Assembly: GCA_040285825.1 (NCBI GenBank)
Contig: JAUPSS010000002.1
Coordinates: forward strand, 62,001-126,000
Length of the DNA: 64,000 bases
Direction: 5' to 3'
Origin: Eukaryota sp. TZLM1-RC
Lineage: Eukaryota; Protista; Metamonada: BaSk clade
A program made the translations under genes and the position numbers. A model generated the notes under the pieces. That model worked only from the letters and a program-made list of their open reading frames with translations. It was not told the DNA's origin and ran no database searches. Of the stretch, positions 23,585-47,845 are shown in pieces. The number at the start of each line of letters is the position of its first letter. Within the stretch, counting starts at the first letter, position 1.

Positions 23585-23718
23585 CTGCTTCTTCCCTTTT
23601 TCAAAATAAATCAGCTTATATGAATATGAAATAAAAACTATATACAATTAACAAAACAACTATAAAAAATACATATAATCGATATAATATAATATAAATA
23701 ATCGATATAAACTAAGAA

Positions 23719-26700
23719 TTAGCTCCTCTTCCTAATTCTATTACTGCGTCTAGGCTTCTTAGAAGGCGTAGACTCATTGGAGGTACCTTGTCGTCGACTA
23801 ATGGTACGTTTTCCAATTTTCTTGTTATCCTTACTAAATAACTTATAAGCTTCTGAGTGTCTAACCGAGTGGAGTGGCTCTTCTGTTGTCTCACCGCCAA
23901 ACCACTGAACAGTACAGAAGCTACCTGAATCAGAGTGGTATTCTGAGAGGATTTTCTCTATAACGTGCTTTTCGGAATCGCCCGCAGCGACTGCCTTGAG
24001 GAATTCAATGTCCTGTGGATTTTCTGCGTTATAGATTTTGCAATCTTTCTTGGCAGCTTTTAATTCTGTGCCAGTAGTAAGATTCTTCAATAATAAAGTG
24101 GATTTGGAAGGAAGATCAATAACTAAAAATGGTCCATTCCAAGATCCATGCAATTTATTATTTTGCTTGGTTTTACGTAAGACGTAGTCACCAATATTAA
24201 ATACTGTAAAACACGAATTAGTATTATCTACTGAAGACGGAGTATTTAATGTTTGGTGACGCTCTGCTTCTTCCCTTTTTTCTTGTAGACGAGTGTATTT
24301 CATTTTGATGTCATCTAATAAAGGGATATTAGTTTCAAATTTGGATAAATTTCCTAATATATTAGCAGGGTCTGTTCTTGGACTAATCGAAGAACCGAAC
24401 ATGAGTTCGTATGGGGTAAAACCAGTTTTTCTGCTTTTAGTAGAATTTATTAATAGTTGGGATATAGGTACGTATGTAGACCAATTTCCGTAATCATTGA
24501 AATCTATTAATAGTTTCCTTAAGCACTGAAGAACGTCTCTATGTTTACGTTCTACAAGTCCATTACTTTCTGAATAGTGGGGAATTGAGTTACTCATCTC
24601 AATCGCTAATCTGTTACACACTATTTTGAAAGTCTCATTGGCGAACTCAGGTCCATTATCACTATGAATTAACATAGGTATGCCGAAGATAGCGCCAACA
24701 TTCCAAATCAAGGCATCTGCGGTTTCTAAGGCATTGAGTTCTTTTAGAGGGACTAAAATTGTATATCCAGTAAAAGAGTCTACAAATACTAATAGATATT
24801 TATTTCCTTCGTTGTCAGAATTTAGGGGTCCAATTGTATCGACATTTAATCTGGCAAAAGGACGATCTGCCCATAAAGATCCTGTGGAAGGTGTTTTTGA
24901 TCTTTTAACTGGAGCCGTTTTTTGACAAGTTGGGCATCTTTTGACATGATTAATAAGGTCCTTTCTCATATTGGGCCAGTAGAAATCGCTTTTGGACAGT
25001 TTGTGTAAACTATCATTTTTGCTGGGGTGACCAGATTGAACCAAACCATGTATTAATAATAGTGCCTGTTTTCTGAGGCTCTTTGGAATCAAAATTTTGT
25101 TTTTATTATTTTTCCAAATTTGAGTGTTTACATCTAGAATTGCGTTATCAAATAAAGAGTCGTTGTTGTTTTTGGCTATTTGTTGTTCAGATCTTATCTT
25201 AGACAGCCAAGAAGAAAAAATAGGTAGGTCTTGGTGTCTACTTAGAGATGAGATTGAAGGGATGTCTTCAAGATCCGAATCAGAATCATCGTCTAGTGGA
25301 GGTATCTCGTAATTCGAAAGTAAAGTGTCTGGTATAGTTATACTACAAATAGAAGGAGTTTCCTCGTTTTGATCCAAATCAATATTCCTCGATAGCATAT
25401 CTGCCCAATGGTTGTCTTCACCAGGTTCGTGGACTATGTCAAAGTCGAATTCAGATAGTATCGGCAGCCATCTCTTTACAATTCTATTTTTCTCTGGGGC
25501 TGTAGCCAGGAATGCAATGTTTTTATGATCTGTGAAAATTGTTAAATGTCTAGTTAACAAGTAGCTTTCTAAACAACTTTCAGTTAAAATCAGAAGTATT
25601 GCGTATAATTCTTTTTGTAAGGTGGACCATTTTCTTTGTGTTTCTGTAAGTAATCTACTATAGAATGACAAAGGTTTCACTTTCCTTTTATTTAGCGGGG
25701 TTCCTGCAGGGGAGTAGGGTTCAATTTCTTGCCAAATAACACCTCCTACTGCTACATCTGAAGCGTCAGTACTTATCAATACTCGCTTGCCCGGAGCTGG
25801 TAATTCAAGGGGCATGTGGTTTACTATTAGGTCTTTTATTTGTTTTAAGTAATCGTCATGCTTGCAAGTCCATTTAATTATTCTGGGTTTTCCTTTAATT
25901 AGCTCGTTAATTGGAGCAATTAATTCAGAAATACCTGGAAGCCAATCTCTAATATAATTGATGGATCCTACCAATGAGCGAACTTCTTTCACTGTTTTTG
26001 GTCTAGGGATTCTCATCAAGGCTTCGATTTTTTTCTTACTTATAAATCTAGTTTTATCCTGGAAGGTACTTCCTAAAATGTCGATAGGGTGTTTTGATGT
26101 TACGAATTTACATTTACGTAAGCCTATATTTACACGTCTATTTCTGGCGCATTGGAGGACTCTTTGTAATCTCTTATAGAATTCTTCGAAAGTCGTTCCA
26201 ACTATTATGATATCATCAATATATATAAAAACGCCATCAATTTGGAATATTTCCATCATTACATTTTGAAAAACTGCTGGGATGTTCTTTAATCCGAAGC
26301 AAGCTCTTTTAAACATAATTGATCTTCCAGGGATTGAGATTGATGTTTTCTCAATATCCTTCTCAGCAACATTCATCTGCCAGAAAGCTTTTGGTAAATC
26401 AAGCGTGGCGATGTAATTTGCTCTACTCAAAAATTCTAATATATCACTAATCCTAGGTAGATTAGGCTCTACTGAAATCGTATGGGCATTAACTCCATCT
26501 TTACCACTAAAGTCTCCAGTTAACCTGGGTTTTTTGCCGTCAGGGTATATAACTAAGACAATAGGAGAGCTGAATTTATAATTAGATTCAACTGCATAGC
26601 CCATTTCGATCAGTTCATCAAATATTTTGTTTGCTATTTCCAATTTGCTGGGATTTAACCGTCTAGCAGGTTTATGTACTATAGCATTCTCATCTCTAAA

Positions 26701-29700
26701 GGGGATTGTTAGAGGATTACAATCGATTCCTTTTCTATTAGGAGTTTCACTAAAAACATCGCTGAATAATTTTAGTAGACTCGTTAATTTTAATTTATTA
26801 TTACTATCATCTAAATTTATCTCACATCCAGATCTTGCTAATTGCTCCTCAAAATCAGAGGGACTTGGTGATTGGTTATCTAAGTTCCCAATCGAATGTT
26901 GAGCGATCCTAGAGTCGAATTCTGATTCTGCATTTAGCAAAGTGCGGTGTTCTTTGTCTAATCTAATGAAAAGACCATCATCCGTCTGAAGCCCAAGTGC
27001 TTTTAACATGTCTGTCCCTATTAATAATTTGTTCGAACCCGGGTTTATGGGAAGAGTATGTTTATAATGAACTTGTTGCGCAATGCTTCCTACGTTGAAC
27101 GACAGAATACCAGTTGCACTCCCTAGCGATTTTGTGGATACGTTATTAGCTGGTAAGAACTTAATAGTATCCTTGCTATTGATTGACATATGGCATTGTT
27201 CAGCTAAATCTGCAGTAATAACTGAACAAAACGCAGCCGAATCTATAGTCGCAATCATTTTAATATCATTTATTGATATCTCCAGTCTTAGAAATGGAGA
27301 ACGCTGGGACCTGATGTGGTTTTCACTAACCGTAGAATTAATATCAAAAATGCTATTGATATCAGAGTTGGTTTGGTGAATTTGTAGAGGAATTAAAAAA
27401 TTTTGTGGAGCTGTTGGAAAGTTGTTGACTGGGTTTCCTAAATCGGTTGTTGATTGGTTGTGATTGATTGCGTTGATATGTATCCGATTAGGAAAGTTGC
27501 CTGTCCTGCTGTTCCGGTTGCTGTTGTTGATCCGTCTGTGAGGAACCGTACTCGAACGGGTCGGTTTTGACTCAGTAGGGGATGTGTTTGATGATATGTC
27601 CTCTGTTGTGTTTATGTTATGTATAGGTCTGTACTGACCTCTTCCTTTATGACCTCTATAACGGCCTCCACGGCCTCTAAATTTGAATCTATGTACACGT
27701 CTACCACGGCCACCTCGGCCCCTTTCTACACTGCCTCTACTAGCAGGCGCCTCCTGTTCTCCTAATCTGAATCTTTCTTCTTTGGGAACTCTGCTTCTAG
27801 CGCAACGAGGATCTTTGCATTCGAATGCAGTGTGGCCAACAGGATTGTTACCTTCGACGTTGCTGCAGAATGTACAGAATTTTGACCCTTCTCGTTCATG
27901 CTTTTCAGGGATGTATTTGTGTTGAGGGGTTCCTCTTGACTTTCCACCTGAACGTCTTGCTCGTTTTGTTGGAGCCTGGGCTGATGGTGTTACTCCTCTT
28001 GAGTAAGTTCTCATTGCCGTGAGTCCCAAAGGAATATCTTCTTCGTTAGCCCTGTTCCTTAGTACATCCATTGTGGGCTTGTTTCCTGCTGTGTAACACC
28101 AAGCGAGGAAATGTCTTCTCGTTGTCGATATCAAATCGAGTAGAGTTGTTCTGTTCGGTGAGTCCCACAAGGATTCCCTAGTCCATACTGGGAGGAGTTC
28201 GCTTGAAATAGCAAAGTTATCCAGACCCATAAGGAAGTACTCGGCTATAAGAGCGGGAGATATGGTTATCAACCCACTGCTTCCTCTAATTAAATCAGGG
28301 ATGGTTAGGTCGGTCATGTAGGTGGTCATTCTCAAGACGTCTCCAAAATCTTCTACATAACGACCAAACTCGTTGTCAGCCTCATGCCTATTGTGGATTT
28401 TCCTCCAATTTATTCTAGGCTTCATTAGAGCTGTACAAGCCTCATGATATGATGTGAATTGCGTTCTTTTTAACAGAAATACCATGACGTCGGCGTCGGT
28501 ATAATCAACACCGAGTAAACCTTGACTCTGCCATCTAGATAGAAGGCTAGGGTCGATCATGCTGGATATTCCTGTGGGGCAAGTGCTCATCATCATGCTC
28601 CTAAATAAATCATAATGGTGGATTGGGGGTCCGAGCTTATCTGTTATAGCTGGATCAATCCTTACCAAAGGCTGTGTTGTATCCCTGGTGATCTCGTCGC
28701 GTATATGTTTGGGGAGATCTTTAATCCTATCTTGGGTTATTTCTGCTTGGCCTTCTCCAAATAGCTGGGTAGCTATCATAAAGGCTCTGGTCCAATCTGA
28801 TTGACCTGGGGCTTCGAAGCTTCTATTAGCTATCTTTCGCCCGTATTTATCCCAAGTTTGATATTTTAAAAGAAAAGCTATGATAGACATTTTGTTAATA
28901 GGGTCATCAGCGGATAATCGAGGTCTTTTATAGTCGATATCCTTAGACCGTGGATCAATCTGTCTATGAAGGCTACTAGCTATGCTCATGTCAATAGCTC
29001 TTCTTGAGGATTGTAGGTCCTCAATACGCATAGGTCTATCGGAAGAAGGGTCTCTTACTGAGGGTTGAGGAGGAGCCGTTTCTCCAACGACTGGCCCGTT
29101 CAACTCAATATCTTCTCCAATTTCACTTTCCATGGGTTGAGAGGAAGTTGGTTCTTCCTGAGGTGCAACGTCTTGTCTTGTTACAGGTTCCGGGACGTTC
29201 ACTGTTGGAACATGATCGGGTATGCTGTCGATAGAGCAGACCTGTATTGGTTGGCTTTTTTCAGAAATTATAGGGGCTACAACAGGTAGTTTGGGAAGGT
29301 GGAGAGATGTGGATGGATCTCCCGTTACCCATTGTCTAAACTCTCGTTGTTTTGTGAACGAGTTACCATGTTGTTGGGTGTAGTTGTTAGGACGGCTCCT
29401 ATACGTGGATACAGCTGATCGTTCCGTATGAATGTTATTTAGAGCGTCTGCATCAAACCAGGGGGTTACTGGTTCAAGCTTGTCTGGTTCACTACTATCC
29501 TCCTGCTCCATAAATTCCCTAAAATATGTGGGAGCACCCTCTGTCAGCTCCGTGTAATTATGGATTTCCGTATCAAAGTTAGGATCAAACCAGGCAGGCA
29601 ATTTGGATTGTAGGATGTCTTCCGAGTCGGTCCTACTTCTCTGTTCGATGGAGAGAAACCTTATTCTCCTGCCGTATTGATCTAGGAAGGAGGCCTTCCA

Positions 29701-30528
29701 ATCCAATCTATCTTTGATGGGAAGAGACATCAATTCATTGATTCTCTTGTCCATTCCAGAGATTCTGGGCCGGCGTTCTGCGTTACGCCCGAATGTCTCT
29801 CTACTCAATTTATCGAGTGCCTTTATGAGTTCGTTCCTTTCATTGAGGGGAATTTCCAATACCTTTTGGGTATCCCCAACCATTCCGAGGGTCTGGAAAC
29901 CAACGTTTCTGCCTCTTTTTTGAACGTAACTCCATAAAGGGGGAAGTTGCTCGAACAGACAGAAATCTGTTGGTTCGAGGTAAGCCTCCGCGTCCTTTCT
30001 TAATAACTTGTAGAACCCCTCAGAAGAGTCGTCTTCTCCCTCCATTTCATCTAGTTGAGATTGAATTTCTTCATATTCTCCTAATGGGGAAGACGTGTCT
30101 AAGGTGGGATCTCCATCCGTTCCCTTTGAGACAGGTTCTAGAGTTGGGAGGGGAGAGGGAGCCGGGTCCGTTCTCGTTGCCTCTTCCATTGCTCTGAGGG
30201 GAGAGGGAGCCGGGTCCGTTCTCGTAACCTCATCTGTTACTTTTTTCCTGAGGGGAGAGGGAGCCGGGTCCGTTCTCGTTACCTCTTTTGTTACTTTTTT
30301 CCTGAGGGGAGAGGGAGCCGGGTCCGTTCTCGTTACCTCTTTTGTTGCTGAAGATGAAGGGACCTCGTCCACTTTCTCACCTTCTTCTACTTTAAGGGAG
30401 GGGGAGGTGGGATCCGGGTCCGTTGCCTCGTTACCCTCTATGTTGTGCATATGTGTTGCTGGTACTTGCTGCATGTTAGATGTTGTCTGTAAAGTGTCAG
30501 AGATATCCTGTGCTGGTTTGTCTGACAT
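23719..30528 (-). CDS. Gag-Pol polyprotein of element C (2269 aa)
   Basis: Expanded knuckle CTFC-x10-H-x4-C, protease TIDSAA, RT YIDD, RNase H TDASDVAVGG, integrase HHCC plus DTIGP/SDNGPEF/SNGLVER, GPF, chromo-like HVIEKIL..VQWFGGETTEEP. Confidence 0.96.
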   Translation of the reverse strand: MSDKPAQDISDTLQTTSNMQQVPATHMHNIEGNEATDPDPTSPSLKVEEGEKVDEVPSSSATKEVTRTDPAPSPLRKKVTKEVTRTDPAPSPLRKKVTDEVTRTDPAPSPLRAMEEATRTDPAPSPLPTLEPVSKGTDGDPTLDTSSPLGEYEEIQSQLDEMEGEDDSSEGFYKLLRKDAEAYLEPTDFCLFEQLPPLWSYVQKRGRNVGFQTLGMVGDTQKVLEIPLNERNELIKALDKLSRETFGRNAERRPRISGMDKRINELMSLPIKDRLDWKASFLDQYGRRIRFLSIEQRSRTDSEDILQSKLPAWFDPNFDTEIHNYTELTEGAPTYFREFMEQEDSSEPDKLEPVTPWFDADALNNIHTERSAVSTYRSRPNNYTQQHGNSFTKQREFRQWVTGDPSTSLHLPKLPVVAPIISEKSQPIQVCSIDSIPDHVPTVNVPEPVTRQDVAPQEEPTSSQPMESEIGEDIELNGPVVGETAPPQPSVRDPSSDRPMRIEDLQSSRRAIDMSIASSLHRQIDPRSKDIDYKRPRLSADDPINKMSIIAFLLKYQTWDKYGRKIANRSFEAPGQSDWTRAFMIATQLFGEGQAEITQDRIKDLPKHIRDEITRDTTQPLVRIDPAITDKLGPPIHHYDLFRSMMMSTCPTGISSMIDPSLLSRWQSQGLLGVDYTDADVMVFLLKRTQFTSYHEACTALMKPRINWRKIHNRHEADNEFGRYVEDFGDVLRMTTYMTDLTIPDLIRGSSGLITISPALIAEYFLMGLDNFAISSELLPVWTRESLWDSPNRTTLLDLISTTRRHFLAWCYTAGNKPTMDVLRNRANEEDIPLGLTAMRTYSRGVTPSAQAPTKRARRSGGKSRGTPQHKYIPEKHEREGSKFCTFCSNVEGNNPVGHTAFECKDPRCARSRVPKEERFRLGEQEAPASRGSVERGRGGRGRRVHRFKFRGRGGRYRGHKGRGQYRPIHNINTTEDISSNTSPTESKPTRSSTVPHRRINNSNRNSRTGNFPNRIHINAINHNQSTTDLGNPVNNFPTAPQNFLIPLQIHQTNSDINSIFDINSTVSENHIRSQRSPFLRLEISINDIKMIATIDSAAFCSVITADLAEQCHMSINSKDTIKFLPANNVSTKSLGSATGILSFNVGSIAQQVHYKHTLPINPGSNKLLIGTDMLKALGLQTDDGLFIRLDKEHRTLLNAESEFDSRIAQHSIGNLDNQSPSPSDFEEQLARSGCEINLDDSNNKLKLTSLLKLFSDVFSETPNRKGIDCNPLTIPFRDENAIVHKPARRLNPSKLEIANKIFDELIEMGYAVESNYKFSSPIVLVIYPDGKKPRLTGDFSGKDGVNAHTISVEPNLPRISDILEFLSRANYIATLDLPKAFWQMNVAEKDIEKTSISIPGRSIMFKRACFGLKNIPAVFQNVMMEIFQIDGVFIYIDDIIIVGTTFEEFYKRLQRVLQCARNRRVNIGLRKCKFVTSKHPIDILGSTFQDKTRFISKKKIEALMRIPRPKTVKEVRSLVGSINYIRDWLPGISELIAPINELIKGKPRIIKWTCKHDDYLKQIKDLIVNHMPLELPAPGKRVLISTDASDVAVGGVIWQEIEPYSPAGTPLNKRKVKPLSFYSRLLTETQRKWSTLQKELYAILLILTESCLESYLLTRHLTIFTDHKNIAFLATAPEKNRIVKRWLPILSEFDFDIVHEPGEDNHWADMLSRNIDLDQNEETPSICSITIPDTLLSNYEIPPLDDDSDSDLEDIPSISSLSRHQDLPIFSSWLSKIRSEQQIAKNNNDSLFDNAILDVNTQIWKNNKNKILIPKSLRKQALLLIHGLVQSGHPSKNDSLHKLSKSDFYWPNMRKDLINHVKRCPTCQKTAPVKRSKTPSTGSLWADRPFARLNVDTIGPLNSDNEGNKYLLVFVDSFTGYTILVPLKELNALETADALIWNVGAIFGIPMLIHSDNGPEFANETFKIVCNRLAIEMSNSIPHYSESNGLVERKHRDVLQCLRKLLIDFNDYGNWSTYVPISQLLINSTKSRKTGFTPYELMFGSSISPRTDPANILGNLSKFETNIPLLDDIKMKYTRLQEKREEAERHQTLNTPSSVDNTNSCFTVFNIGDYVLRKTKQNNKLHGSWNGPFLVIDLPSKSTLLLKNLTTGTELKAAKKDCKIYNAENPQDIEFLKAVAAGDSEKHVIEKILSEYHSDSGSFCTVQWFGGETTEEPLHSVRHSEAYKLFSKDNKKIGKRTISRRQGTSNESTPSKKPRRSNRIRKRS
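30139..30345 (-). repeat. Coding minisatellite in gag of element C (4 x EV/ATRTDPAPSPL, 48-54 bp units)
   Basis: GGGGAGAGGGAGCCGGGTCCGTTCTCGT occurs four times. Confidence 0.9.
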
Positions 30529-30614
30529 GATGAGATATCTTTGTTAGTAAGTTAATGAAGTTTGCTGAGGTTGTTAGTGGTATACCTTTTGACTTTAAAA
30601 TGGCCAATAATTAT

Positions 30615-30693
30615 TGTTGCCTAAAGTCTATTGTAGTAAAGAAAAGTCTGATTTATTTTCTATTCATATTATATAAGCCTTAGGGCGCCAACA
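30615..30693 (-). repeat. 5' LTR of element C (79 bp)
   Basis: Identical to 23506-23584. Confidence 0.96.
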
Positions 30694-31240
30694 CAACCTT
30701 TTAATCTTAATGCTCCAACATTCGAAACAATACAATTTTTATTTAAATATCACAGCATTGATTTTTTTGGAAATTCAAAGTGCGAAGACAACAAAAAGTT
30801 ATACATAACGAGACCAATGTCATTATTGTGGAACACCTCCTTTAAATCGTCACCTTGATGTTGATCTCACAAATTATTCAACCGTTTAAAAAGCAATTGT
30901 TGATCACAGTCACCAATTGATTGTGAATAATCAAGTTGCAAGACTTTGGATGAATTTTTTATCTAGTCAAAATTCAAACTACAAATTTCTGTTCAAAATG
31001 ATCCAAGAGCACAGTATTCAAATGTTGTATTAATCTTAATGGCAGATTGTCAGACTGTATCAATGTATTGAAACAATCCAATATTTACTTAGAATGCGTA
31101 CTAATTGGTATAAGTTCTTGTGCAGAAAAAGCAACATTGCATTCAACTAATCAGAATTGTTCAAGGTCAATCATGTCACATCAATGTCTGTCCTCCTTCT
31201 CCTCCTCAAAAGATGACAGCATGTTCTATTACACTTCCAC

Positions 31241-34010: not shown

Positions 34011-34650
34011 CTCTGTCTATAGTAGTCTCTGTCATATAAGTAATGGATAATAAAGACTTTGGTTTAACTTTTCTGGTTTAAGAACTTGATAAGATCAGGT
34101 TTTAACTATACTGTCTTAATTGAGTTACTATATTCTGAAGTTGATATACTGGTTTTAATATAAGTTTTAGAATCTGTTTCTGGTTGTCATCAAACTTATA
34201 GAAGTGAATTCGAATAACGGGTGTTTTTAATTGCTGCATATACTCAGTGATGTGGCCAGAGGTTCTTCTTGTGACAGAAAGCACCATATCCTTAATTCCA
34301 AGTTTCTCTTTTTGTAATTCGAGAACATTGGAGTAACAAAATTAAAGTACCTCTATTACAAAACAAGTAATTCCATTAATTCCAAAATTTCTGGGGTAAC
34401 GGAAAAGGTTTGCAAAGCATAAAGTGCGTGATCAATTGACTTTTGTGGATAAATTGTCTTGTAGAAAAAAATACTTTGTAATGTTAATTAAATGTGTCTC
34501 TACACACTTTGAAGATTAAAATAGTGAGCCATATAATTAGATGAATTGTGCACATTGTCAATGTTGGCCAATGTATTAAGATATGGTCATAACTGAAAAA
34601 ATGAAAAGTCTGTACTAGCAAATTGCAATATTCCTAGCCTTGAAATTTTA

Positions 34651-34724
34651 TTTATTGAATTTGCACACTTGATTAAATTTAATCACAACTAATGGGACGA
34701 CTATCATTAAACCAAGATTTCCTC
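34651..34724 (-). mobile_element. Short 3' tail fragment of CRE-like family 1
   Basis: Reverse complement of GAGGAAATCTTGGTTTAATGATAGTCGTCCC...CAAATTCAATAAA; no clear TSD. Confidence 0.85.
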
Positions 34725-35069: not shown

Positions 35070-36659
35070 TATAAAGGACGTACTGGAAAAACTTTGGGAA
35101 TTTAGCCATTGTCCCAAAGATGTTGGAGACAAAGTTTTTACAAACACGGTAATCACAAATATTTTGCAAACATTTGACTGCATATTAGTAATTGGTGAAT
35201 AGAATAAAGATTCTGGTTCCAAAAGGAAAGGAATGTACCCATTTAAAGTTACAAGCATAAGAAAAGTATTGAGGCAAGCCGGCGATGCTCTGCATTGTTC
35301 GAAATTGATAACTTAACGTTTTTCATTACATGATACTGTTAGAGACACTGTTTTTTATATGGCACGAACTGCAAGAATCTCGTGTATTAAAGAGCCTCTG
35401 CTGAAGGAAACACTGTCATTGAATAATTTTGGTTCTGATGATAGAGGTGATGTATACTGTGATTGGATTGAGAACTCTGAAGCTGTTGTTGACTTTGTCT
35501 CATGTAATGTTGCAAATGACACTTTGGTTCACAGAAGAAAACTTAATCCTGTAGGTGCTCTTGAATTTAAAGCTAAAGAAAAACATAGAAAATATGACAA
35601 AGATATCGAAGAGCCTAATGCTGGTAGAAATACATAACTAGTTTTTATTGCTTTCCCATCTTCGATAAACGGAAGACTATCAGTAGAAGCAGAAACTTTT
35701 TTGAATGACTCTTCAAAAAATAGTTCAAGAAAAAACAATGAAAAGATTTGATATTTTTTGGTGCTCTCGGATTCAATTTGCCATTATTAATAGATTACCT
35801 CGGTTTTTCAATTGAATTAGAGAAGCTTTAGCTACACAGCAAGCAGATCAAGATTTTGTAGAGGAAATCTTGGTTCGATGCTTTTCGTCCCGTTAGTTAT
35901 GAATTCATTTTATTAAGTGTGCATGTTCAATAAATATTTGTTTTTGACAAGCCGGTTACCTTGTTTACTTAGTTAATGAGGCATTTACTTTAAAGATGTC
36001 ATAAATATGCTAAAAACGGTGAAAATGGAGAAAGCCTGGAAACTTTATTGGAATATGATGATCAAAACTTTACAAAAAATTGAACTCAATTAGACGGGAG
36101 ATTCACGTCAGAAAGAAGAATTGGAAGTTGCATATAGATTCAAACAATGGAAAAAAAGGCATAATTGAAACCAAAAGTAAATGAGAAGTACGAGGAAGCA
36201 ATGAAATCAAGAGAAACCTAGTCATATACATGAGTAAGAATGAACCATGACGTCTAGCAATTGTAGAAATAGTAGAAGAATTTGAAAGTACAACCAACAA
36301 GAGGATAAGAAAACGAATTTCAAGGGCTCTTAGAAAACGATGAATTGGGCAACTATAGAGTTCGACAAGTAGTTCCATGGGGTCTGAGGCAGTGTCATCA
36401 TTGCAAAACCTTCTGGAATCGAGATACTAATTCTGCTCTAAATATTCAGATGATGGATGAAGAGCTTCTGGATGAAAGAGAGAGAACAGAGGTGTTCAAG
36501 AGCCAACAGTCTCAACCCGGGGTCATTGAACGCAGTAATGAAAACTTGAATGATGTTGGAAAGGATTCTGAAAGTGATGGTATACCAATGAGTCCAATTC
36601 AACAATCTGACATCAATACATTATCACATATTGCGAAAGCGATAATTGAGAAACAATGA
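35070..36659 (+). pseudogene. Fanzor (eukaryotic TnpB-like RuvC nuclease) pseudogene alpha, split by a CRE insertion
   Basis: Removing 35283-35955 gives ILVIGE*NKDSGSKRKGMYPFKVTSIRKVLRQAG|YLVYLVNEAFTLKM (RuvC-II), then WGLRQCHHCKTFWNRDTNSALNI...ERTEVF (Zn finger plus RuvC-III); several stops and frameshifts. Confidence 0.82.
35283..35947 (+). mobile_element. 5'-truncated, diverged CRE-like family 1 insertion (endonuclease domain plus 3' UTR)
   Basis: Homologous to 40741-41396; flanked by duplicated CAAGCCGG (35275-35282 / 35948-35955). Confidence 0.9.
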
Positions 36660-37060: not shown

Positions 37061-39298
37061 TCAACTCAACTTATTGATCCAAGCAGTTCTATAAACATTG
37101 GTGGACGAATGACGAGTCAAAACCATTATTCTGGACTTTGTGAAACTATCAAACCAATCCTTAACTACATAGCCGACACCGAAAGCTTGTCCTTTTTTGA
37201 TGGACACAATTCCTGATGTAACGAATCCCACAATCGTAAACGAAGGGCAACAACTGGAAAATAATTTGCTATCTGTTTTTCCACAATTTTCGGTAATTCT
37301 CTCTGTAAGAGGATAAACACCATTTGGAATAATAGAAATAGTAGAATTTGAAGGGCATTTTCCAGGTCCAATTAGAGTAACAGAAACAGCAACAAGGTCA
37401 CAAATAGAAGGAAAGTTGCTGATTGGTATTTCTGTTGTTAGAGGGTTAATAACCATCTGGCAATCAAAACTAATCCAATCGAACAACGATTGAGAATCAA
37501 AATCAAACATCTGCAGAGAGTTGAAAACTTCTTCTTTTGAGAACTGATTATCAATCAAAGCTCCCAAAATAAAAGACAACCAATCAATTTCTTTTGAATT
37601 CTGTTGACCAAAGTACTCCAATTTCCAACAGACTGAAATTAAAACAAACGCAGTCCAGTTCCAAAAAGGAAATTTCCAACTTTTGAAGTAATTGACCCTT
37701 TTTCCAGGAGGAATTGCTTCATATTTAGTAAATAAAGTTTTGGAATGTTCAAATCTAGACAGAATTCCTGACCTCGTATAAGGATAATCAAAGGGAAAAT
37801 ACAATTCACCTAATTCAGTACAAATAGAATGTTCATCTTCAAAACCGATAGCTTTTCCTCCGTGATTAACCAATGAATTCCAGACAGTGCTAGTCCACTG
37901 AATGGGGAAAAAGCAGAGGAACCCTGACCCGGATGCCCTAGAATCAATAGAATTTAGCTGATAGAACACGGAAGGTGGTCCTGGAAAGTCCTTTGATTCG
38001 GTCAAAATGGAGTGGAAGACGCCAGAATTCATCCTCCTCTGATTAATTGATGATGTTGGTTCAGGGGGAGAGTGAAAGTCCAAAACTTGGCTGAAATCCA
38101 CACTTGGACAATCAAATTTCCAATCAGAAATGATTGATCTTAACTCCCTTGGTGGGGATCCAAGAGTTTCCATTCTTGACTGTCTCGATGACAATGATGA
38201 CGATGTAACTGCCGAAAAGGGTCGAGTGGGAGTCGAATGTCGTTGATTGGGGGTTTTATAACTGACTGCCGAGAATGGCCTGCTGCTGGGCAACTCATCA
38301 ACTGATTTCTCAAGAGGGTAGCGTCGAGGATCACCACAAACAGTTAAAAACCCCGCTCCTTTAGGCAAGCATGGACCAGTAACTGATCCCATCATTGAAA
38401 GTAATGAATTTTGACAAGTTGGTAATGACTTGTTCAAAAGAAAGCTGCTTTTGGCACCTCTAACAGTAATTATTCCAGTGTTGGTGTTGGAAATAGATAA
38501 ATTTGGAAAAAAGGAGGAAAAATACGTGTGAATAAAATTAAACTGAATACTTGGATGAACTATAACGAAAAGGGAACAGCACTGAGGAGAAAAAAAGAAT
38601 TTGACTGGACTAACTGGTTCATTTAAAAAGAGAAAGGAATGGCCGATTTTCGAACCAAATTTAAATTGGGCACCAGAAAGGGAATCTCCAGTGAGAAAAT
38701 GAGGTGAAAGGGAAGTAATGAGGGTCGTGTAAACGTCATCAAAGGTAACTGATTGATCTTTTGATTGGTTGAGGTTTATTTTGAGCAAATGATGATATGA
38801 TGTGTCCTGAATGGTTGCAACATGACATGATGACGTGATGATTGACCGGGAGTTTTTTTGGGTTGCCGTCCTTGGGAGTTTAAAACCCCACAAAGTTTCC
38901 ATATGAAACCTCTTAGCATGCCAAATATGAGTTTGAAGCCATAAAGCACCTGTTCTATTGGCAAAGTCTACCTTAGTTCTTCTTCTTCGCCATCTTTTTT
39001 GCTTTTTTTCTGGAGTTTTGGGTCTGGAATTTATGGTCTCCTTTTCTGCACGACATCGCAGCTTTGCAGGTACTCTGTGAATATCATGAGAGGCAGCACG
39101 ACGTCGAGAGTGGCGAGGAAGAGACTGAAAGGCACGTTTATTTCCATCAATATCAGAGACTTCGTATAAGAGGACGTTGATTTCATTAGCACGTGCACGA
39201 GTATAATCAACAACATTAATGTATGTAGTGCCAACATGTTTAGGATCTGTGATACCAAAGTCTTTGGGACGGTCTCGTTTAGGTATAGGGTTGAACAT
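37061..39298 (-). CDS. POP1: RNase P/MRP protein subunit POP1
   Basis: RAFQSLPRHSRRRAASH and WLQTHIWHAKRFHMETLWG (POP1 N-terminal boxes), FPFDYP, GFVTSG. First ATG is 39298; the longer GTG start in the ORF track lies inside a retrotransposon fragment. Confidence 0.93.
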   Translation of the reverse strand: MFNPIPKRDRPKDFGITDPKHVGTTYINVVDYTRARANEINVLLYEVSDIDGNKRAFQSLPRHSRRRAASHDIHRVPAKLRCRAEKETINSRPKTPEKKQKRWRRRRTKVDFANRTGALWLQTHIWHAKRFHMETLWGFKLPRTATQKNSRSIITSSCHVATIQDTSYHHLLKINLNQSKDQSVTFDDVYTTLITSLSPHFLTGDSLSGAQFKFGSKIGHSFLFLNEPVSPVKFFFSPQCCSLFVIVHPSIQFNFIHTYFSSFFPNLSISNTNTGIITVRGAKSSFLLNKSLPTCQNSLLSMMGSVTGPCLPKGAGFLTVCGDPRRYPLEKSVDELPSSRPFSAVSYKTPNQRHSTPTRPFSAVTSSSLSSRQSRMETLGSPPRELRSIISDWKFDCPSVDFSQVLDFHSPPEPTSSINQRRMNSGVFHSILTESKDFPGPPSVFYQLNSIDSRASGSGFLCFFPIQWTSTVWNSLVNHGGKAIGFEDEHSICTELGELYFPFDYPYTRSGILSRFEHSKTLFTKYEAIPPGKRVNYFKSWKFPFWNWTAFVLISVCWKLEYFGQQNSKEIDWLSFILGALIDNQFSKEEVFNSLQMFDFDSQSLFDWISFDCQMVINPLTTEIPISNFPSICDLVAVSVTLIGPGKCPSNSTISIIPNGVYPLTERITENCGKTDSKLFSSCCPSFTIVGFVTSGIVSIKKGQAFGVGYVVKDWFDSFTKSRIMVLTRHSSTNVYRTAWINKLS

Positions 39299-39329
39299 GG
39301 GGTGAGGAATTTTATTCTGAGCAATACTA

Positions 39330-39376
39330 TTTAATTTATTGAATTGGCACACTTGATTAAATTAAATCATAACTAA
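39330..39376 (-). mobile_element. 47-bp CRE-like family 1 3'-tail insertion with 13-14 bp TSD
   Basis: TCTGAGCAATACTA at 39316-39329 and 39377-39390 flanks the reverse complement of the family 1 3' UTR end. Confidence 0.9.
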
Positions 39377-39435
39377 TCTGAGCAATACTAAATTACTAAT
39401 TCTATGGTTTTCATTTGAAATGCATACTTTCTTCA

Positions 39436-41396
39436 TGTCATTGGATTTTAGTAATGCTTTCAATTCGCTAAGTCGTCGCAGTATCCATGGTGCTCTATTG
39501 CAATATATGCCAGAATTAATACCATATTTTCAATCAACATATTGCACATATTCTAATTTACATTTTAGTAACAACATTTTGATTTCATCAAGTGGCGTAA
39601 AGCAAGGAGATCCGTTAGGACCTCTTTTGTTTTGTTTGGCCATTCATCCTATTCTACTGCAAATTCAAGAGATGTTTCCTTCACTAAAAATGATTGCATA
39701 TATGGATGATGTTGTGCTTATTGGTGAATTAAATATTGTGAAAAAAGCAACTGTATGTTTTAAAGAATTATTTACCAAAATTGGTCTCCGACTTAATTTA
39801 CTTAAATGTGTTTTGTTATCGAATTCTCCAGTTTCCACAATAATTGATGATATTGAAATTCAAGCCAAATTATATTCAATTGATGCTATTCGTCATTTGG
39901 GTTCGTTTTTAGGAAATAATCATGAAATTACCAAAAATTGTTTGAAAAGTTGAACTCAATTTCTGACAAAATTGACCGAATGATGAATTTAGATATAAAA
40001 AACACATCAAATTTACCATTATAAGACTGTGTTTTAGTTCCAATTTTAATCATATATTTCGATCTACAAATCCTCTCGTCACTAGACCTTTGGCTCAAAA
40101 GTTTAATGAGTTACGTGCAAAAGTTCTGTCTCAATTACTGGGATGTAAAATGTTTCAAATACCAGATCATGCTTACCTTAGTCCACAATATGGTGGTTTA
40201 GGGTGGACGAAGGCTTCTATTCTTACCTCGTGTGCTTTTGTTGGTGGATGCAGAAATGCAATCTTTGAGTTCTCCGAAAGATTTGCAGATTGGGAAGATT
40301 TATTGATGACAACGCAAAGTTCCACTGTTTTTGCATTAAATGAAGAAATTTCAAGAATTGATGTAGAAAAATGGGGGCGATGTTTTCCCCAATCATTCAA
40401 TGGCAATATTCCAGAAAAAAATGTTTTAAATTTGAAGTACACTCTTCGAACATTACAGAAAAGATTGACTGGAATGTATGAAAAAGATCTTTATAATAAT
40501 ATTTGCAGCTCGGCTGTTTTAAATCAAGATCTTCACTCATTGCTATTGGAAAAGGGTGTTTGTGAAAACAAGGTGTCAGATTCTTCACTTTTTGTAACCA
40601 TTGTACCACGAAGATTTGGATTGTGTGCTACTAATGAAGCATTTGTAACAAAAATGAGATTATATTTGAACATCCCCATTAACCAATTATTATCAAAAGA
40701 AAAATGTATTTGTTCGAATTCACCTCAACTCACTTTGCGCCATGCTCTAAATTGCTCTAAATTGATAACTTATCGTTCTTCATTACATGATGCTGTTAGA
40801 GACACTGTTTTCAATATGGCACAAACTGCAAGGATATCGTGTATCAAAGAGCCCCTGCTGAAAGAAACACTTTCTCTGAATAATTTTGGTTCTGATGATA
40901 GAGGTGATGTATACTGTGATTGGATTGATAATTCTGAAGCTATTGTTGACTTTGTCTCATGTAATGTTGCAAACGATACTTTGGTTCACAGAAGAAAACT
41001 TAATCCTGTGGCTGCTCTGGATTTTAAAGCAAAAGAAAAACATAGAAAATATGATAAAGAAATTGAAGATGCAAATATCGATAGAAATACACAGCTGGTT
41101 TTTATTGCTTTTCCATTTTCGATAAATGGAAGATTATCTGTTGAAGCAGAAACTTTTTTGGATGACTTCCAAAAAATGGTGAAAGAAAAAACAATGAAAA
41201 GATTTGATATTTTTTTATGGCGTTCACGGATTCAATTTGCCATTATTAATAGATTACCGCGGTTTTTCAATCGAATTAGAGAAGCTTTAGCTAGACAGCA
41301 AGCAAATCAAGATTTTGTAGAGGAAATCTTGGTTTAATGATAGTCGTCCCATTAGTTATGATTTAATTTAATCAAGTGTGCAAATTCAATAAATTA
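39436..41396 (+). mobile_element. 5'-truncated CRE/SLACS-like non-LTR retrotransposon (family 1; RT plus restriction-like endonuclease)
   Basis: LDFSNAFNS, GVKQGDPLGPLLF, AYMDD, GGLG, CIC..HALNC, HDAV, RGD..D..K..KY; 12-bp TSD ATACTTTCTTCA (39424-39435 / 41397-41408); frameshifted around 39940-40000. Confidence 0.93.
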
Positions 41397-41541
41397 ATAC
41401 TTTCTTCAAGCATCATTCAAACTTATTCCAAGAACTTTCATCCTTGGTGAGATCATCCACAGACGTTTTAGAATCCTCGAATAATTGGCCACCAATCTCA
41501 GTGAGCCCATTTCTCCTCTAGAACAATATGTAGCTTTGAAG

Positions 41542-42000
41542 CTAGTCCCTTTGTGGTCTCTGGAACGCTTCTGGTCTTGTTCCATAGTAGTGCTCACTCA
41601 TTACAATTTCTAGCTTATTTAGTGATGCAGAAATGTCTCTAGACCATACTTGATTACATTCCGGACAACTGACATATGCGTTGTGAACTTTAACTTCACC
41701 ATCAATTTTTCGATAGATCTTTTGGTGTAGCATCTTGCAACAGTTCACCTTTGCAGATGTCATATATTCAAGCAGTTAATGGTTCAATTTCTGCACGTCG
41801 TAAACATCTATTGATGAGTGGATCAGTGGAGCGGAGTGATTGATTTTTCGTTGCTTTGGTGCCAAGAAGATATTAAATACGGTCGGCCCTGAACGTGTTC
41901 CAATGCTGGAACCACATAGATTTGAGTGGTTGGGGTCGATGGCCCAGAACACCATTTCCGTTTCATCATCAGGTGCCTACCACTCAGTAGCTTTTGGTTT
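41542..42000 (-). pseudogene. Fanzor/TnpB-like pseudogene beta (internally deleted)
   Basis: Minus strand: MVFWAIDPN (RuvC-I-like, D at 41937), frameshifted EYMTS (RuvC-II-like, 41769), then NCC...CPECNQVWSRDISASLN...GTRPEAFQR (Zn finger, RuvC-III, RP..F.R tail). Confidence 0.75.
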
Positions 42001-43128
42001 ATGGCGAGGTCGTGGCCGTTTTTACCTTGGCTTGCAAGGTATGTTTTCTATTCCGAGTGGCTTCGTAGTAGTCAAGTTCCCCTCTGGATCTCTTATCAGT
42101 CAAGGCTTCTCCTACATTAGGGGTCCTACTTTTGTTTGGACGTTTTACCTTCGTACCAGAGCTCCAGCTTCTAAGTGGAGGCTTGCAGGAACAGCATTGT
42201 TATTGAGTTAGTTTTTTGTATTTTTATTTTAGAAGAATTAAACTGTATATTAAATAAATTAATGGTTTATTTCCTATTATTTAAATGGATTCAAAGAATG
42301 AGCAAAGACAACTTTGTCAGCTTCCTGACAGGAATTAACAATAGTGATGGAGTCGCATCAGCAGTCTTTGTTGTTATTATGTTACTGTAATGATAACCAA
42401 TATCCGAACAATACCCAGCAGAAGCTTGTAATGCCCTTAGTATTTCCATTTGCCAATGTAGATCATTTATATTGACCTAAATGTAAGTGTGCTTTTGGTT
42501 ATTCTGTTCTTACCCTAATGAAATTCCCTTAAAGAATATCAAATTTAGAAAAACCACATTTTGCAAAATTCTTTAAACAAGTCTTTTAACAAGTCCGATG
42601 AGACCATTTTATCAGAGTAGGCCGAATCATTGACTAATCTTCGTAGAAGAAGTGTTTAAGCTAGCGAGATATAGTTAAGTGTGACACAAAGTGGTACAAA
42701 TTGAAAAATGTCAGCAAAAGTAGATACTATCAATAGTTAAAGGAATGAGAGCATCATCTGGTTGAGGCATCTGATTGAGTCAGAAACACAAAAAAGAGAT
42801 TAGGTAGGGATTAGGTAGGGAAGGGAAAAGAAAAGGGATCAGTATTCAACCTAAAATTCAACCACAGTTGAATTCTGATGTCAATAGTCCTCTTCTTACT
42901 GGGAAAAGATACAAGATTTTTAAATATGTGAAACCTATTGCTACAGTTCTTCTTATACAGAAAATTCTTATACCCAATATAATCTATGTCACTTTGTTTT
43001 TTTTACTCCGTTTGTTTACAGAAAATCTTCAGAAACTCAAAAATTCAGGTTTAAGTGAGATAATATTTCCATAAATTATTGAAATATATATAACAAAATA
43101 TAACAAGTTTATATAAGACTGAAAGTAA

Positions 43129-43880
43129 TTATTGTTCCTTGCTTTGCTCCACAGGCACACGAGGACCAGAGCGAGCTAAAGCAATACGAACACGTCTACC
43201 ACCAATTTCTGTTTGATCATACTTAGCGATAACCTCCTGTGCCTTCTCAGGAGACTCAGCACGTATGTAACCTCTGCCGAGAGGACGAACTGCTGGTGCT
43301 TGGAGTTTGCGATCAAAGTAGCGAACGACTGGGACCTTGACACTAGTGATTGGAAGTTTATGTTCATCAACCCATTCCTTCAACTTGGCATCATCAAAAG
43401 AGAAGGGGAGGTTATTCACGAAGAGATAAGTGCCATCATTCTCGGTGGAGACGGTTCTGCTTGAGCCATTCTCCCTCATACGTTGTCTTCTTATAGCGTG
43501 GATGCGTAAAAAGAAAGGCATTCTGCGAGCAGGGCGGCTGGGACGTCTTTCTTGTCCTTCAGTGACTTCTCCTTGAGGGACAGATTCTCGTCTTTGGCGG
43601 AACTGATGGCGCTCACGAGGACGAATGGGTTTAGCATCTTCAACAATCCAGTCACCACCAGAGAGTGATTTCTTCGTTTCCTCAAGCTTATCAGATGGAA
43701 CTGAGACAATAGCAAAGTGACTTTTTTCGGGCATTCTTGTGCGAATTACAATGACATTACCACCGAAATCATCGAGTTTGGATTGAAGTTCATCACGGGA
43801 GTAATTAAGGGGGAGATTTCCTGGAATAAAAGGGCTGGGAGGCTCTACTTACCCAAATAGATTTTAGAAATATCAGTCAT
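43129..43880 (-). CDS. Two-RRM RNA-binding protein (239 aa; exons 43853-43880 and 43129-43820)
   Basis: Splicing restores RNP2 KIYLG^NLP in frame with the 43129-43734 ORF; second RRM LFVNNLP...GRGYI...GGRRVRI. Confidence 0.88.
43821..43852 (-). other. 32-nt spliceosomal intron
   Basis: GTAAGT...CTTTTATTCCAG; its removal joins the ATG exon in frame. Confidence 0.85.
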
Positions 43881-45152: not shown

Positions 45153-45830
45153 TTACAGTTTTGTTGAGGAGTTAGTGTATTTGATGTTATGGGATACTTT
45201 GAGGAGAGGATTATTTTAAGCTTGAATTTTGTATATATAAAATACATTTTATCAAGAAAAACAATTTTTCCTATTGACAATCAACGTGAAATACTGAGCT
45301 TGCAACACTTTTATGACACCGCTCATGGTGTGGTTCTATCATTCTACCTATGCCAGACAACCATATACGAGATTCTCTAGTAGAAAAACAACTGAGAATA
45401 TGAAATCCTAATTCTTTACAGATGGTTTTCATTTTAGACTTTGGAATGAGTTATTTGATGAAAAGCAGCTATTAGCATTTTTTTTTGCTGAAACTTCAAA
45501 AGGAAATTATTCAACCAAAAAATCTAAATTTCACAATACCAATTCAAGACTCTTGTATTTCGTTCTTCTTAATGAATCTCTGCTATAAAAATATTGTTCC
45601 ATCGGTGATGATAACTCACAAATCAGGATTGTCCTTCTTGATTCATCTGTATTTTTTGAGATAAGGATTAGATCAGGTCTTAACTCAGTCACAACCAAAG
45701 GAACATTTACATAATGATTTGTGTGATAAAATAAATCACACTAAACATCATAATGATCTAGGAAAGGAAGTGAGAGGTTAACAAAACTATTTAAAATTGA
45801 GTCATGTCTCCAGTTAGGTCTATTGAGTGC

Positions 45831-45925
45831 AAGCAGATTAAGATTTTGTAGAGGAAATTTTGGTTCAATGAATTTCGTCCCATTAGTTATGATTTTATTT
45901 TGTCAAGTGTGTAAGTTTAATAAAA
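45831..45925 (+). mobile_element. Diverged 3' tail fragment of CRE-like family 1
   Basis: AAGATTTTGTAGAGGAAATTTTGG...CGTCCCATTAGTTATGAT...AATAAA. Confidence 0.8.
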
Positions 45926-46079
45926 GTTAATTGTCTAGAGTCCCTTAGTTTATATTATGTAGGTTTTAAATGCAATTATTTTTATCCTAACCTTATTCTA
46001 ACACTTCGGCAAGAATGATCGGATGATTATCATATCGGCTAATACTATTAATGAGTACCACCTTCAAGACGTTCAAGCA

Positions 46080-47845
46080 TTAAATCACCTCTATTTCGAC
46101 CAAAAAATACAAAGTATCTTGATCAGCCAAACGGGAAAGTAATGGTTCTAAATAGGAAACAATTCTATGTGATTTTGACATACAATAGAGTTGATGTCTT
46201 ACTGCATCATGAACTTTTGATCGGAAACTAATAAAATGTTTGCAATGGAATAAATGATTTGGAGAAATTTTTGATCCAAATTTACAAATCAAATTATGAG
46301 GCACGTTATCAGGGCAAATGAAACATTGAAGGCGCATTGTACAGGAAAATTCGGTATCATCTAAAAGAAGACCATAAATTTGAGGAATCTGAGTAATTAA
46401 ACACGAAGTGGAACTGTTTTGGGCATCTGACAAAAAATTTGCGAAAGCGGAATTATCTTTTTTGGCTGAGCCAAGACGAACATTAAAATCCAAGTCTTCG
46501 AAAATTTTTGTTAACTTTTGTTGCAATTTTTTAGAAGAGAATATTTATTGAATTTGCACACTTAATTAAATTAACTCAGAACTAATGGGACGACTATCAT
46601 TGAACCAAGATTTCCTCTACAAAATCTTGATCTGCTTGCTGTCTAGCTAAAGCTTCTCTTATTCGATTGAAAAACCGTGGTAATCTATTAATAATGGCAA
46701 ATTGAATCCGTGAACGCCATAAAAAATATCAAATCTTTTCATTGTTTTTTCTTGCACCATTTTTTGGAAGTCATTCAAAAAAGTTTCTGCTTCATCTGAT
46801 AATTGCAATTTTTTAACACAATATCTCAAATTAACTAGTGTTCTAGATGGTATTTCTTGCATATTGTCGGGAGAACTTTTACACCAGATTTCAGAGGGCA
46901 AACAATCAAGAGCATTTTGTAGGTCTCTAAGAAAATTATTGCTTGTAAAATTCAATAAATTAACATCATTGAGAAAACGGTTGCAAAATTCAAAAACAAA
47001 ATTTTTCCCTCCACCACGAAAGGCAGCTTGACAGAGAATAGACGATTTAGTGAAAGTTATTCCACCAAAATTAGATGATGAAAATACATGACTTCGAATC
47101 AGTTCAGGATTGACTTCAATCAAAGATGCAAACAATTTTGTTCTCAAATAGTTTAAATGAGCGGCAAAACTCACGTGAAATATCAAGAGATGTTGTTCTT
47201 AAAATGTGAGTAATTTTACTGAAGTAGCAAATTTTTAAGATAAAAAACTTAATATGTTTCTCAATTTCAAATGACGAAATTGTGTCAAGTTCAGAACCCA
47301 ATTTATTTAAAAGATTATTTAATTCTTCAGTAATTTATGGAACATTTCCAAGCCAGCATCCTATGAAACGAAAAGCATATGAGGAATAGTTAAGAAAAGG
47401 AATTTCAACACCATCAATGGTTAATCTATCTTTTACATTTCCTATGAGAAGACATTTGTCGGCATTAAGCAAAAGACCAATATCTTTGTAAAACAGTGAG
47501 GCTTCAGAAGCAATTTCATTTAAATTATTTAATGGACCAATAATTGAGATATCATCCATGTATCCTACTATCTTCAACATCGGATAGCGATTACTGAAAT
47601 GAATCAAAGACTTGTGAATTGCTAAGCAAAAGAGTAATGGCCCAAGGGGATCACCTTGCTTAACTCCAGAAGACGAAAATAGTGTATGAGATTCATAAAT
47701 TAGTTCACTAGATTTACCATAAAATAAATCAAAATAGTTGCATAATTCTGGAAATTTTTTTCGGATAACATCAAAAACTGCACTTCGATGTACAGAATTG
47801 AAAGCATTCTTAAAATCCAAATTGAAAATATATATCTGATTATTA
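46080..47845 (-). mobile_element. Degenerate CRE-like non-LTR retrotransposon (family 2a)
   Basis: DFKNAFNS, GVKQGDPLGPLLF, GYMDD, GGITF, HLFHC..HDAV spread over several broken ORFs. Confidence 0.88.
46534..46802 (-). mobile_element. Family 1 CRE 3' fragment nested in the family 2a element
   Basis: 13-bp TSD TTGCAATTTTTTA (46521-46533 / 46803-46815). Confidence 0.9.

What the first reader, a model, noticed from the sequence alone, without database searches (positions are those of the whole stretch)
41542..42000. Second, distinct Fanzor/TnpB relic with all three RuvC motifs compressed
Seen on the minus strand: VFWAIDPN, then after frameshifts EYMTS.KVNCC, CPEC..WSRDISASLN and GTRPEAFQR*. Only ~55 codons separate the RuvC-I-like D from the RuvC-II-like E, far fewer than usual, which suggests an internally deleted or non-autonomous derivative. 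Its sequence is very different from relic alpha, implying at least two Fanzor families on either side of POP1.
Basis: partly seen in the sequence, partly recalled or inferred. Interest (0 to 1): 0.75.

Follow-up and report, generated by a model that had tools for sequence, protein, structure and literature searches.

The report
Broken copy of a protist Fanzor1
This is a broken copy of a predicted Fanzor1 (RNA-guided DNA-cutting) transposon gene whose catalytic motifs look squeezed together only because 306 bases are missing; whole, near-identical copies of the same family exist in Skoliomonas-type protist genomes and likely form an undescribed Fanzor1 branch.

Summary
The motifs are real and D lies 56 codons from E. 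All lie in one minus-strand frame, broken by one TAA and not by frameshifts. Full-length 609-aa paralogs, about 90% identical, put D and E 158 residues apart in one ORF. The window copy lacks exactly 102 codons, joined at a 4-nt microhomology. It also lacks residues 1-318, has a frameshift and two stops, and a non-LTR retroelement with a 12-nt target duplication splits its 3' tail. The deletion removes two predicted RuvC strands and the long REC2 helix. None of 7 paralogs spanning the site shares it, so this is a dead individual copy and not a mini-nuclease. The intact family folds like Fanzor1 (Foldseek E 1e-10 to 1e-14, against 1e-3 for Fanzor2). It forms one long branch found in three Skoliomonas-type assemblies, several with near-identical whole ORFs. 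Relic alpha belongs to another lineage. Verdict: an ordinary relic that points to a new member of a known kind.

The parts
42021..42112 (-). Most 5' surviving piece of the Fanzor1 gene (about residues 319-349 of the 609-aa paralog). Homology stops at 42112, so residues 1-318 (REC1, WED) are absent.
   Evidence: tblastn. Paralog contigs leave the window at 42112 and go on in coding sequence; one X1 contig matches 42062-42248 with 0 differences across the junction.
42021..42023 (-). One extra base relative to paralogs (frameshift)
   Evidence: table 4; frame change between HSPs
41977..41979 (-). Premature TAG (Gln in paralogs)
41770..42020 (-). RuvC-I part (residues about 350-433) with AIDPN, catalytic D codon 41937-41935
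   Evidence: 88-91% identity to P0113/P0116/P0122 over 41991-41758
41776..41778 (-). Premature TAA (Tyr in paralogs)
41767..41770 (-). Junction of a 306-nt in-frame deletion (102 codons, residues about 434-535) at a 4-nt microhomology TGAA; no GT..AG at any slide
   Evidence: An X2 contig of 1382 nt aligns 41397-41770 (its 163-536) and 41767-42112 (its 839-1177); loose ends carry the missing coding sequence; protein alignment
41542..41769 (-). Ealt (41769), zinc ribbon, RuvC-III D (41637) and native stop; residues 535-609
   Evidence: 89-91% identity to intact paralogs; PF07282 E 9e-05
41397..41541 (-). Conserved 3' non-coding tail shared with paralogs; likely omega-RNA region, proximal part
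   Evidence: Contigs of runs X1 and X2 align through it. RNA role inferred from other Fanzors; no Rfam match at threshold.
39436..41396 (+). 5'-truncated non-LTR retroelement inserted into the Fanzor 3' tail, flanked by a 12-nt target-site duplication (39424-39435 and 41397-41408)
   Evidence: RVT_1 E 1.7e-15; duplication; empty-site joint 39435 to 41417 in an X1 contig
39405..39435 (-). Distal remnant of the Fanzor 3' tail beyond the retroelement; the true right end lies here or slightly further on
   Evidence: Loose ends of 3 X1 contigs and 1 X2 contig at 41397 read as window 39405-39423
39317..39390 (-). A 47-nt 3' tail of the same retroelement family (39331-39377) with a 13-nt duplication (39317-39329 and 39378-39390), between the relic and the POP1 start
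37061..39298 (-). Host POP1 gene (neighbour, same strand as the relic)
   Evidence: POP1_N, POPLD and POP1_C; ATG at 39298

Best explanation
The stretch is a broken single copy of a multi-copy Fanzor1-type gene family, and its RuvC motifs lie close together because a 306-nt in-frame piece, likely lost by microhomology-mediated repair, is missing between them. Shown: whole paralogs of 609 aa; the deletion and its 4-nt microhomology; loss of residues 1-318; a frameshift; two stops; a retroelement with a target duplication in the 3' tail. Predicted: the deleted residues are two RuvC core strands, a helix and the long REC2 helix, so the remaining D, E and D could not form an active site even if translated. 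Inferred from characterised Fanzor1s: intact copies make an omega-RNA from the element's 3' end and cut DNA under its guidance, probably aiding re-copying of a non-autonomous transposon. Interrupted gap repair is one likely source of the many truncated copies. The carrier transposon is not identified.
For: P0113, P0116 and P0122 (609 aa) carry D377, E535 and D579 in one ORF, are 96-97% identical to each other and 88-91% to the window's main pieces. D to E is 158 there and 56 here; it is 150-209 in all 23 proteins over 250 aa in which the motif patterns were found. The DNA deletion is measured on an X2 contig. 7 of 44 close proteins span both sides and 0 of those 7 lack the middle; 0 of 10 hits of 75-240 aa cover both halves. 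The AF2 model of P0116 has mean pLDDT 86.4. Its top 7 Foldseek PDB hits are all Fanzor1 (E 1.5e-10 to 1.4e-14), with Fanzor2 9b0l at 9.8e-04; VIA Z is 18-21 against 10.8. Frequent 5' truncation plus internal deletion with intact 3' ends is described for the Fanzor1 families CRe-1/2/3 (PMC3627910, passages).
Against: No listed contig spans the deletion junction, so it is not confirmed apart from the window's own assembly (30 pieces not shown). The census is of predicted proteins, so unannotated copies with the same deletion would be missed, and only 15 of 24 members of the main cluster were listed per call. The substitution pattern (6 synonymous, 12 non-synonymous; 18 of the listed sites) does not prove neutral decay. 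The model's alignment included distant Fanzor1-like proteins. A profile of the clade alone found no Fanzor in the PDB by sequence (2 weak LaTranC hits), and a model from the clade-only alignment was poor (pLDDT 45.5; best hits E 7e-03 and weaker).
Confidence: 0.86

Rival explanations
1. The deleted form is a propagated non-autonomous subfamily (MITE-like) that keeps the 3' end and omega-RNA and is moved in trans.
For: The 3' tail is conserved with paralogs. Another lesion, loss of the catalytic D-P dipeptide, is shared by 5 of 44 close proteins and seen in contigs, so damaged copies of this family can spread.
Against: 0 of 7 spanning proteins and 0 of 10 short hits share the deletion. The contig ends listed at the junction continue into the missing segment. 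Depth 5' of 42112 drops to one contig. The tail is split by a retroelement.
Confidence: 0.06
2. The copy is kept for a function: a compact nuclease or zinc-ribbon peptide (the 73-aa ORF), a guide-RNA donor, or a regulatory element for POP1.
For: The deletion is in frame and keeps D, E and D codons. The 73-aa ORF is open. With both retroelement copies discounted, the shared tail ends about 45 nt from the POP1 ATG.
Against: Two stops and a frameshift; no REC1 or WED; loss of predicted RuvC strands 496-502 and 529-534; the 73-aa ORF starts after E; a 1.96-kb retroelement cuts the terminal hairpin of the tail.
Confidence: 0.04
3. The 306-nt gap is an assembly error in a repeat.
For: No listed contig of runs X1-X3 bridges the junction in the window's form.
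Against: The gap is an exact multiple of three at a 4-nt microhomology. The copy differs from paralog contigs at about 4% of sites on both sides (13 of 328; 14 of 374). Its 5' junction is matched exactly by an X1 contig. The copy is dead either way.
Confidence: 0.04

Closest known systems
Fanzor1 (SpuFz1 8gkh/9ceu, PpFz1 9cf0, GtFz1 9cer)
   Same: The intact paralog matches over its whole length (VIA Z 18-21, 452-504 residues aligned). It has Gly at the canonical RuvC-II site, Ealt before the zinc ribbon, RD in RuvC-III and a TDG-like WED motif. The Spizellomyces protein also reads DPN at RuvC-I.
   Different: Identity is only 11-16%. The clade reads TS-x4-CC/CH where others read TS-x2-CxxC, and TDG is SNG or TNG in most members. 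The window copy keeps 31% of the protein and is broken.
Giant-virus Fanzor1-like proteins (Homavirus A0A3G5A4E5, Tetraselmis virus 1 A0A2P0VP66)
   Same: Best viral structure matches, E 3e-18, TM about 0.6. Atlas look-alikes of P0011 are 564-804-aa-class clusters with DUF8286 and TNB, mostly Nucleocytoviricota, score 0.98 (top three rows 623-804 aa).
   Different: 14-16% identity. No relative was found in viral contigs with one query. This is not evidence of a viral donor.
Chlamydomonas CRe-1/2/3 (Fanzor1 in non-autonomous Helitron2)
   Same: Described as often 5'-truncated with internal deletions and intact 3' ends (PMC3627910, passages), as here. A modest hairpin (z about -2.5) lies near the rebuilt 3' end.
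   Different: No Helitron ends, ATIRs or flanking duplication could be shown here, and the left end is missing. A lead only.
Fanzor2 / IS607 TnpB
   Same: Ealt arrangement and zinc ribbon.
   Different: Much weaker structural match (Foldseek E about 1e-03, Z 10.8-11.8). No serine recombinase among the 23 ORFs scanned.

Membership tests
Fanzor/TnpB (Bao and Jurka motif) | D-X(125,275)-[TS][TS] spacing, window copy | tested here: not met
   58 residues between D and TS (E is 56 codons after D); explained by the deletion
Fanzor/TnpB (Bao and Jurka motif) | D-X(125,275)-[TS][TS] spacing, intact paralogs | tested here: met
   D377 to T538 in P0113, P0116 and P0122; motif from PMC3627910
Fanzor/TnpB (Bao and Jurka motif) | C4 zinc finger two residues after TS, then RD | tested here: inconclusive
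   The second pair C569/C572 and R578-D579 are conserved. The first pair is altered to CC or CH four residues after TS. PF07282 passes the cut-off for P0023 and P0029, not for P0011 or P0024.
Fanzor (Yoon fingerprints) | RuvC-I DPG motif | tested here: inconclusive
   D-P is present but followed by N across the clade. The paper says 'near exclusively DPG'; SpuFz1 also has DPN.
Fanzor (rearranged RuvC-II) | Gly/Pro at the canonical Glu and an alternative Glu next to the zinc finger | tested here: met
   G501 and E535 are invariant in alignment A2; definition from PMC10530073. The window keeps Ealt and has lost G501 in the deletion.
Fanzor1 | Overall fold with enlarged REC1/REC2 and WED, about 600 aa or more | tested here: met
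   For intact P0116: top 7 Foldseek and VIA hits are Fanzor1. The window copy lacks REC1, WED and part of REC2.
Fanzor1 | TDG motif in WED | tested here: met
   TDG in P0024/P0101, TNG in P0023/P0127, SNG in P0113 and P0029; G299 nearly invariant. Absent from the truncated window copy.
Fanzor1 | Placement inside the Fanzor1 clade of a rooted tree with Fanzor2/TnpB | tested here: inconclusive
   Quick unrooted tree without Fanzor2 or TnpB rows: 9 clade members form one side of a long branch, SH-aLRT 100
Fanzor1 | Expressed omega-RNA at the 3' end | tested here: inconclusive
   A non-coding tail of about 165 nt is conserved among copies; folding z -1.4 to -2.5; expression not testable
Fanzor1 | RNA-guided, TAM-dependent DNA cleavage | not testable with these tools
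   Needs a biochemical assay on an intact paralog
Fanzor1 | Carried by a eukaryotic DNA transposon (TIR/TSD or Helitron/Crypton ends) | tested here: inconclusive
   Multi-copy and dispersed over contigs. The left end is lost here, and no terminal inverted repeat was among the 25 longest of 71 pairs shown. Genomic flanks of intact copies could not be fetched.
Fanzor2 / IS607 | Closest structural and sequence kin among Fanzor2; adjacent serine recombinase | tested here: not met
   9b0l ranks 16th (Foldseek) and 35th (VIA); no resolvase family in 23 window ORFs

The most novel reading that the evidence does not exclude
The relic marks an undescribed, recently active, lineage-restricted Fanzor1 branch of soda-lake metamonads: several subfamilies (29-42% identical to one another) with near-identical whole ORFs of 592-609 aa, a DPN RuvC-I and a rebuilt zinc site, moved by an unidentified carrier, and including a nuclease-dead sublineage that still multiplies. 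Intact members would be working compact RNA-guided nucleases.
Probability: 0.55. Interest if true: 0.5.

Novelty: new member of a known kind. Interest (0 to 1): 0.3.

Why it matters
The copy itself matters little: it is a typical transposon ruin, and the compressed RuvC is not a new architecture. Its use is as a pointer. It leads to at least 14 near-full-length ORFs in three young subfamilies (3 of 609 aa with the triad intact, 7 of 592 aa, 4 of 604-605 aa), plus single copies, in a protist group whose genome paper's main text does not mention Fanzor or TnpB. These are ready candidates for TAM and omega-RNA assays from salt- and alkali-adapted hosts. Comparing their ends would name the carrier transposon. 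This would not be the first metamonad Fanzor: Carpediemonas hits are in a published table.

Tried and rejected
The genome index answered once: only short 26-82-nt matches in AT-rich flanks of bacteria and invertebrates, taken as chance; the protein query there did not complete, so flanks of intact copies are unseen. Viral contigs with P0011 and metagenome contigs with A4 and P0116 gave no relatives. No RNA holder was listed, which says nothing about expression. Rfam gave only three sub-threshold matches over 39250-43100. Folding of 41620-41398 alone was unremarkable (z -1.15). The first AF2 model (clade-only alignment) was too poor to use. PDB sequence searches with clade-only profiles gave 0 and 2 weak hits. 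The PDB hits of profile A2 lean on the distant proteins in it, so I weight them little. Intron loss as the cause of the gap was rejected: no GT..AG at any slide of the junction. An alternative genetic code for the stops was rejected: paralogs have sense codons there, and host genes read through long ORFs in the standard code. The 42113-43130 flank matched no Fanzor part and no other window repeat. The synonymous/non-synonymous test was inconclusive. Earlier scan notes: none found.

Full report
Observation. The six-frame translation shows all four motifs in one minus-strand frame: MVFWAIDPN, then a TAA at 41778-41776, then LLEYMTSAKVNCC, CPECNQVWSRDISASLN and GTRPEAFQRPQRD with a stop at 41544-41542. 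The D, E and D codons start at 41937, 41769 and 41637, so D and E are 56 codons apart. The C-terminal piece hits Pfam Cas12f1-like_TNB at E 9e-05, under the curated cut-off.

Setting. The window is eukaryotic and repeat-rich: LTR retrotransposons, non-LTR reverse transcriptases, a tandem CCCH-finger array and host genes POP1, RRM, FtsJ and CEP76. All 21 hits of a search with a paralog are named Eukaryota sp. TZLM1-RC; more distant clade members are named TZLM3-RCL and GEM-RC1. That these assemblies are Skoliomonas (metamonads of soda lakes) is partly recalled. The preprint passages I saw name Skoliomonas litria and sp. GEMRC but not TZLM1; the habitat is from the start of an abstract in a search listing.

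The intact gene. Cluster look-ups gave three 609-aa proteins (P0113, P0116, P0122) with AIDPN (D377), DEYMTS (E535) and WSRD (D579) in one ORF, and a 607-aa one (P0125) that lacks the D-P pair. The four are 96-98% identical, and the window's two main pieces are 87-91% identical to them. TZLM3-RCL has seven ORFs of 592 aa (94-98% identical) and four of 604-605 aa (98-99%); GEM-RC1 has ORFs of 596 and 539 aa. The subfamilies are 28-42% identical to one another. I checked the triad by alignment in P0023, P0024, P0101, P0127 and P0029, not in the other eight RCL1 copies.

The deletion. Paralogs have 102 residues between YLLE and EYMTS that the window lacks. A 1382-nt contig of run X2 aligns to 41397-41770 with its bases 163-536 and to 41767-42112 with its bases 839-1177. 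That is a 306-nt deletion whose ends share four bases, TGAA. No slide of the junction gives GT..AG, so this is not intron loss; microhomology-mediated repair is inferred. In the AF2 model of P0116 (58 sequences, mean pLDDT 86.4) the lost residues cover helices 452-460, 463-491 and 516-526 and strands 496-502 and 529-534. These are the long REC2 helix and two RuvC core strands (assignment inferred). Of 44 fetched proteins with HSPs of 60% identity or more to P0116, 7 span both sides and none of the 7 lacks the middle. None of 10 hits of 75-240 aa covers more than 54% of the read-through window peptide. Caveats: these are predicted proteins only, and no listed contig bridges the junction in the window's form.

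Other lesions. Homology ends at 42112, near residue 319, so REC1 and WED are gone. An X1 contig matches 42062-42248 exactly, which supports that junction. About 189 of 609 codons (31%) remain. The 3' non-coding tail is shared with paralog contigs down to 41397, and their loose ends then read as window 39405-39423. An X1 contig joins 39435 to 41417. The 1.96 kb between is a 5'-truncated non-LTR element (RVT_1) flanked by a 12-nt duplication at 39424-39435 and 41397-41408. Its C-terminal ORF shows a cysteine knuckle and an acidic motif that I recall as restriction-like endonuclease type. With the insertion removed in silico, a hairpin spans the insertion site (z about -2.5; the whole tail z -1.4), so the retroelement probably cut the omega-RNA region. 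The copy differs from paralog contigs at about 4% of bases. Eighteen listed changes were 6 synonymous and 12 not, which does not settle neutrality.

Family. The P0116 model's seven best PDB matches are Fanzor1 structures (Foldseek E 1.5e-10 to 1.4e-14; VIA Z 18.1-21.3), well ahead of Fanzor2 9b0l (E 9.8e-04; Z 10.8) and TnpB. Best viral matches are giant-virus proteins at 14-16% identity, and the Atlas agrees. The clade has Gly at the canonical RuvC-II site and the alternative Glu, as described for Fanzors (PMC10530073, passages; PMC10711439, section 22 part 1 of 3 and section 28). It also has a TDG-like WED motif. It departs from the norm in DPN for DPG, also seen in SpuFz1, and in CC or CH four residues after TS. 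The all-representatives search found 69 proteins. In a quick unrooted tree of 30 long ones, without Fanzor2 or TnpB rows, the 9 clade members sit on one long branch (SH-aLRT 100). Against over-reading: clade-only profiles do not reach any Fanzor in the PDB, and the clade-only model was poor.

Relic alpha. It lies at about 36357-36515 on the plus strand. It scores 37.9 bits on the broad profile and 11.1 on the clade profile, against 113-133 for this relic's C-terminal piece. It shares only 7 of 17 residues with this relic. Both abut the same retroelement family, but that family has at least seven 3' ends in the window, so chance suffices.

How it works. The copy most likely does nothing. Intact copies are inferred to be RNA-guided nucleases using a 3'-end RNA, as reviewed for Fanzors (PMC13565253, passages). 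The carrier is unknown. 5' truncation with internal deletions and intact 3' ends recalls the Helitron2-borne CRe elements (PMC3627910, passages), a lead only.

Novelty. Searches for Fanzor with Metamonada or metamonad found no paper, with Trichomonas one unrelated review, and none of the 9 listed Skoliomonas papers is about transposons by title. The genome preprint's main text has no Fanzor or TnpB; its supplements are closed. The supplements of PMC10530073 have none of six metamonad names. Those of PMC10711439 lack Skoliomonas but list two Carpediemonas membranifera proteins as Fanzor hits, so metamonad Fanzors are already tabulated. Subscription papers and Repbase were not searchable. Verdict: an ordinary dead copy of a new member of a known kind; interest 0.3.

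Noticed in passing
P0002, P0014, P0030, P0125, P0130; window 41932 (table 4): Five of 44 close paralogs share an in-frame loss of the catalytic D-P dipeptide, one in an otherwise whole 607-aa ORF; contigs of X1 and X2 show the same 6-nt gap. A nuclease-dead sublineage that seems to have multiplied.
   Followed up: partly
window 36000-36515 (+): Relic alpha: C-terminal Fanzor1-like fragment of a different lineage, directly behind a retroelement 3' end (35282-35935).
   Followed up: partly
window 7166-33624: Tandem array of about 1.56-kb units, 98-99% identical, each with a tandem CCCH zinc-finger ORF (8 seen), interrupted by two LTR retrotransposons (11421-18791 with 155-nt repeats; 23506-30694).
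   Followed up: no
window 24030-30446 and 57578-64000: Two inverted copies of one LTR retrotransposon, 98.5% identical; the first has a single 2274-aa gag-pol ORF.
   Followed up: no
window 1-291, 34643-34724, 35653-35935, 39331-39377, 41110-41398, 45829-45932, 46543-46803: At least seven 3' ends of one non-LTR retroelement family, some only 47-100 nt long; two were shown to have 12-13-nt target duplications.
   Followed up: partly
window 39298-39435: The Fanzor tail and a retroelement tail sit within about 110 nt of the POP1 start codon, so this gene's upstream region is largely mobile DNA.
   Followed up: partly
window 42113-42200: A fairly GC-rich stretch joined to the truncated 5' end of the relic; single contig in X1, no match to family proteins or to other window repeats. 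Origin unexplained.
   Followed up: partly
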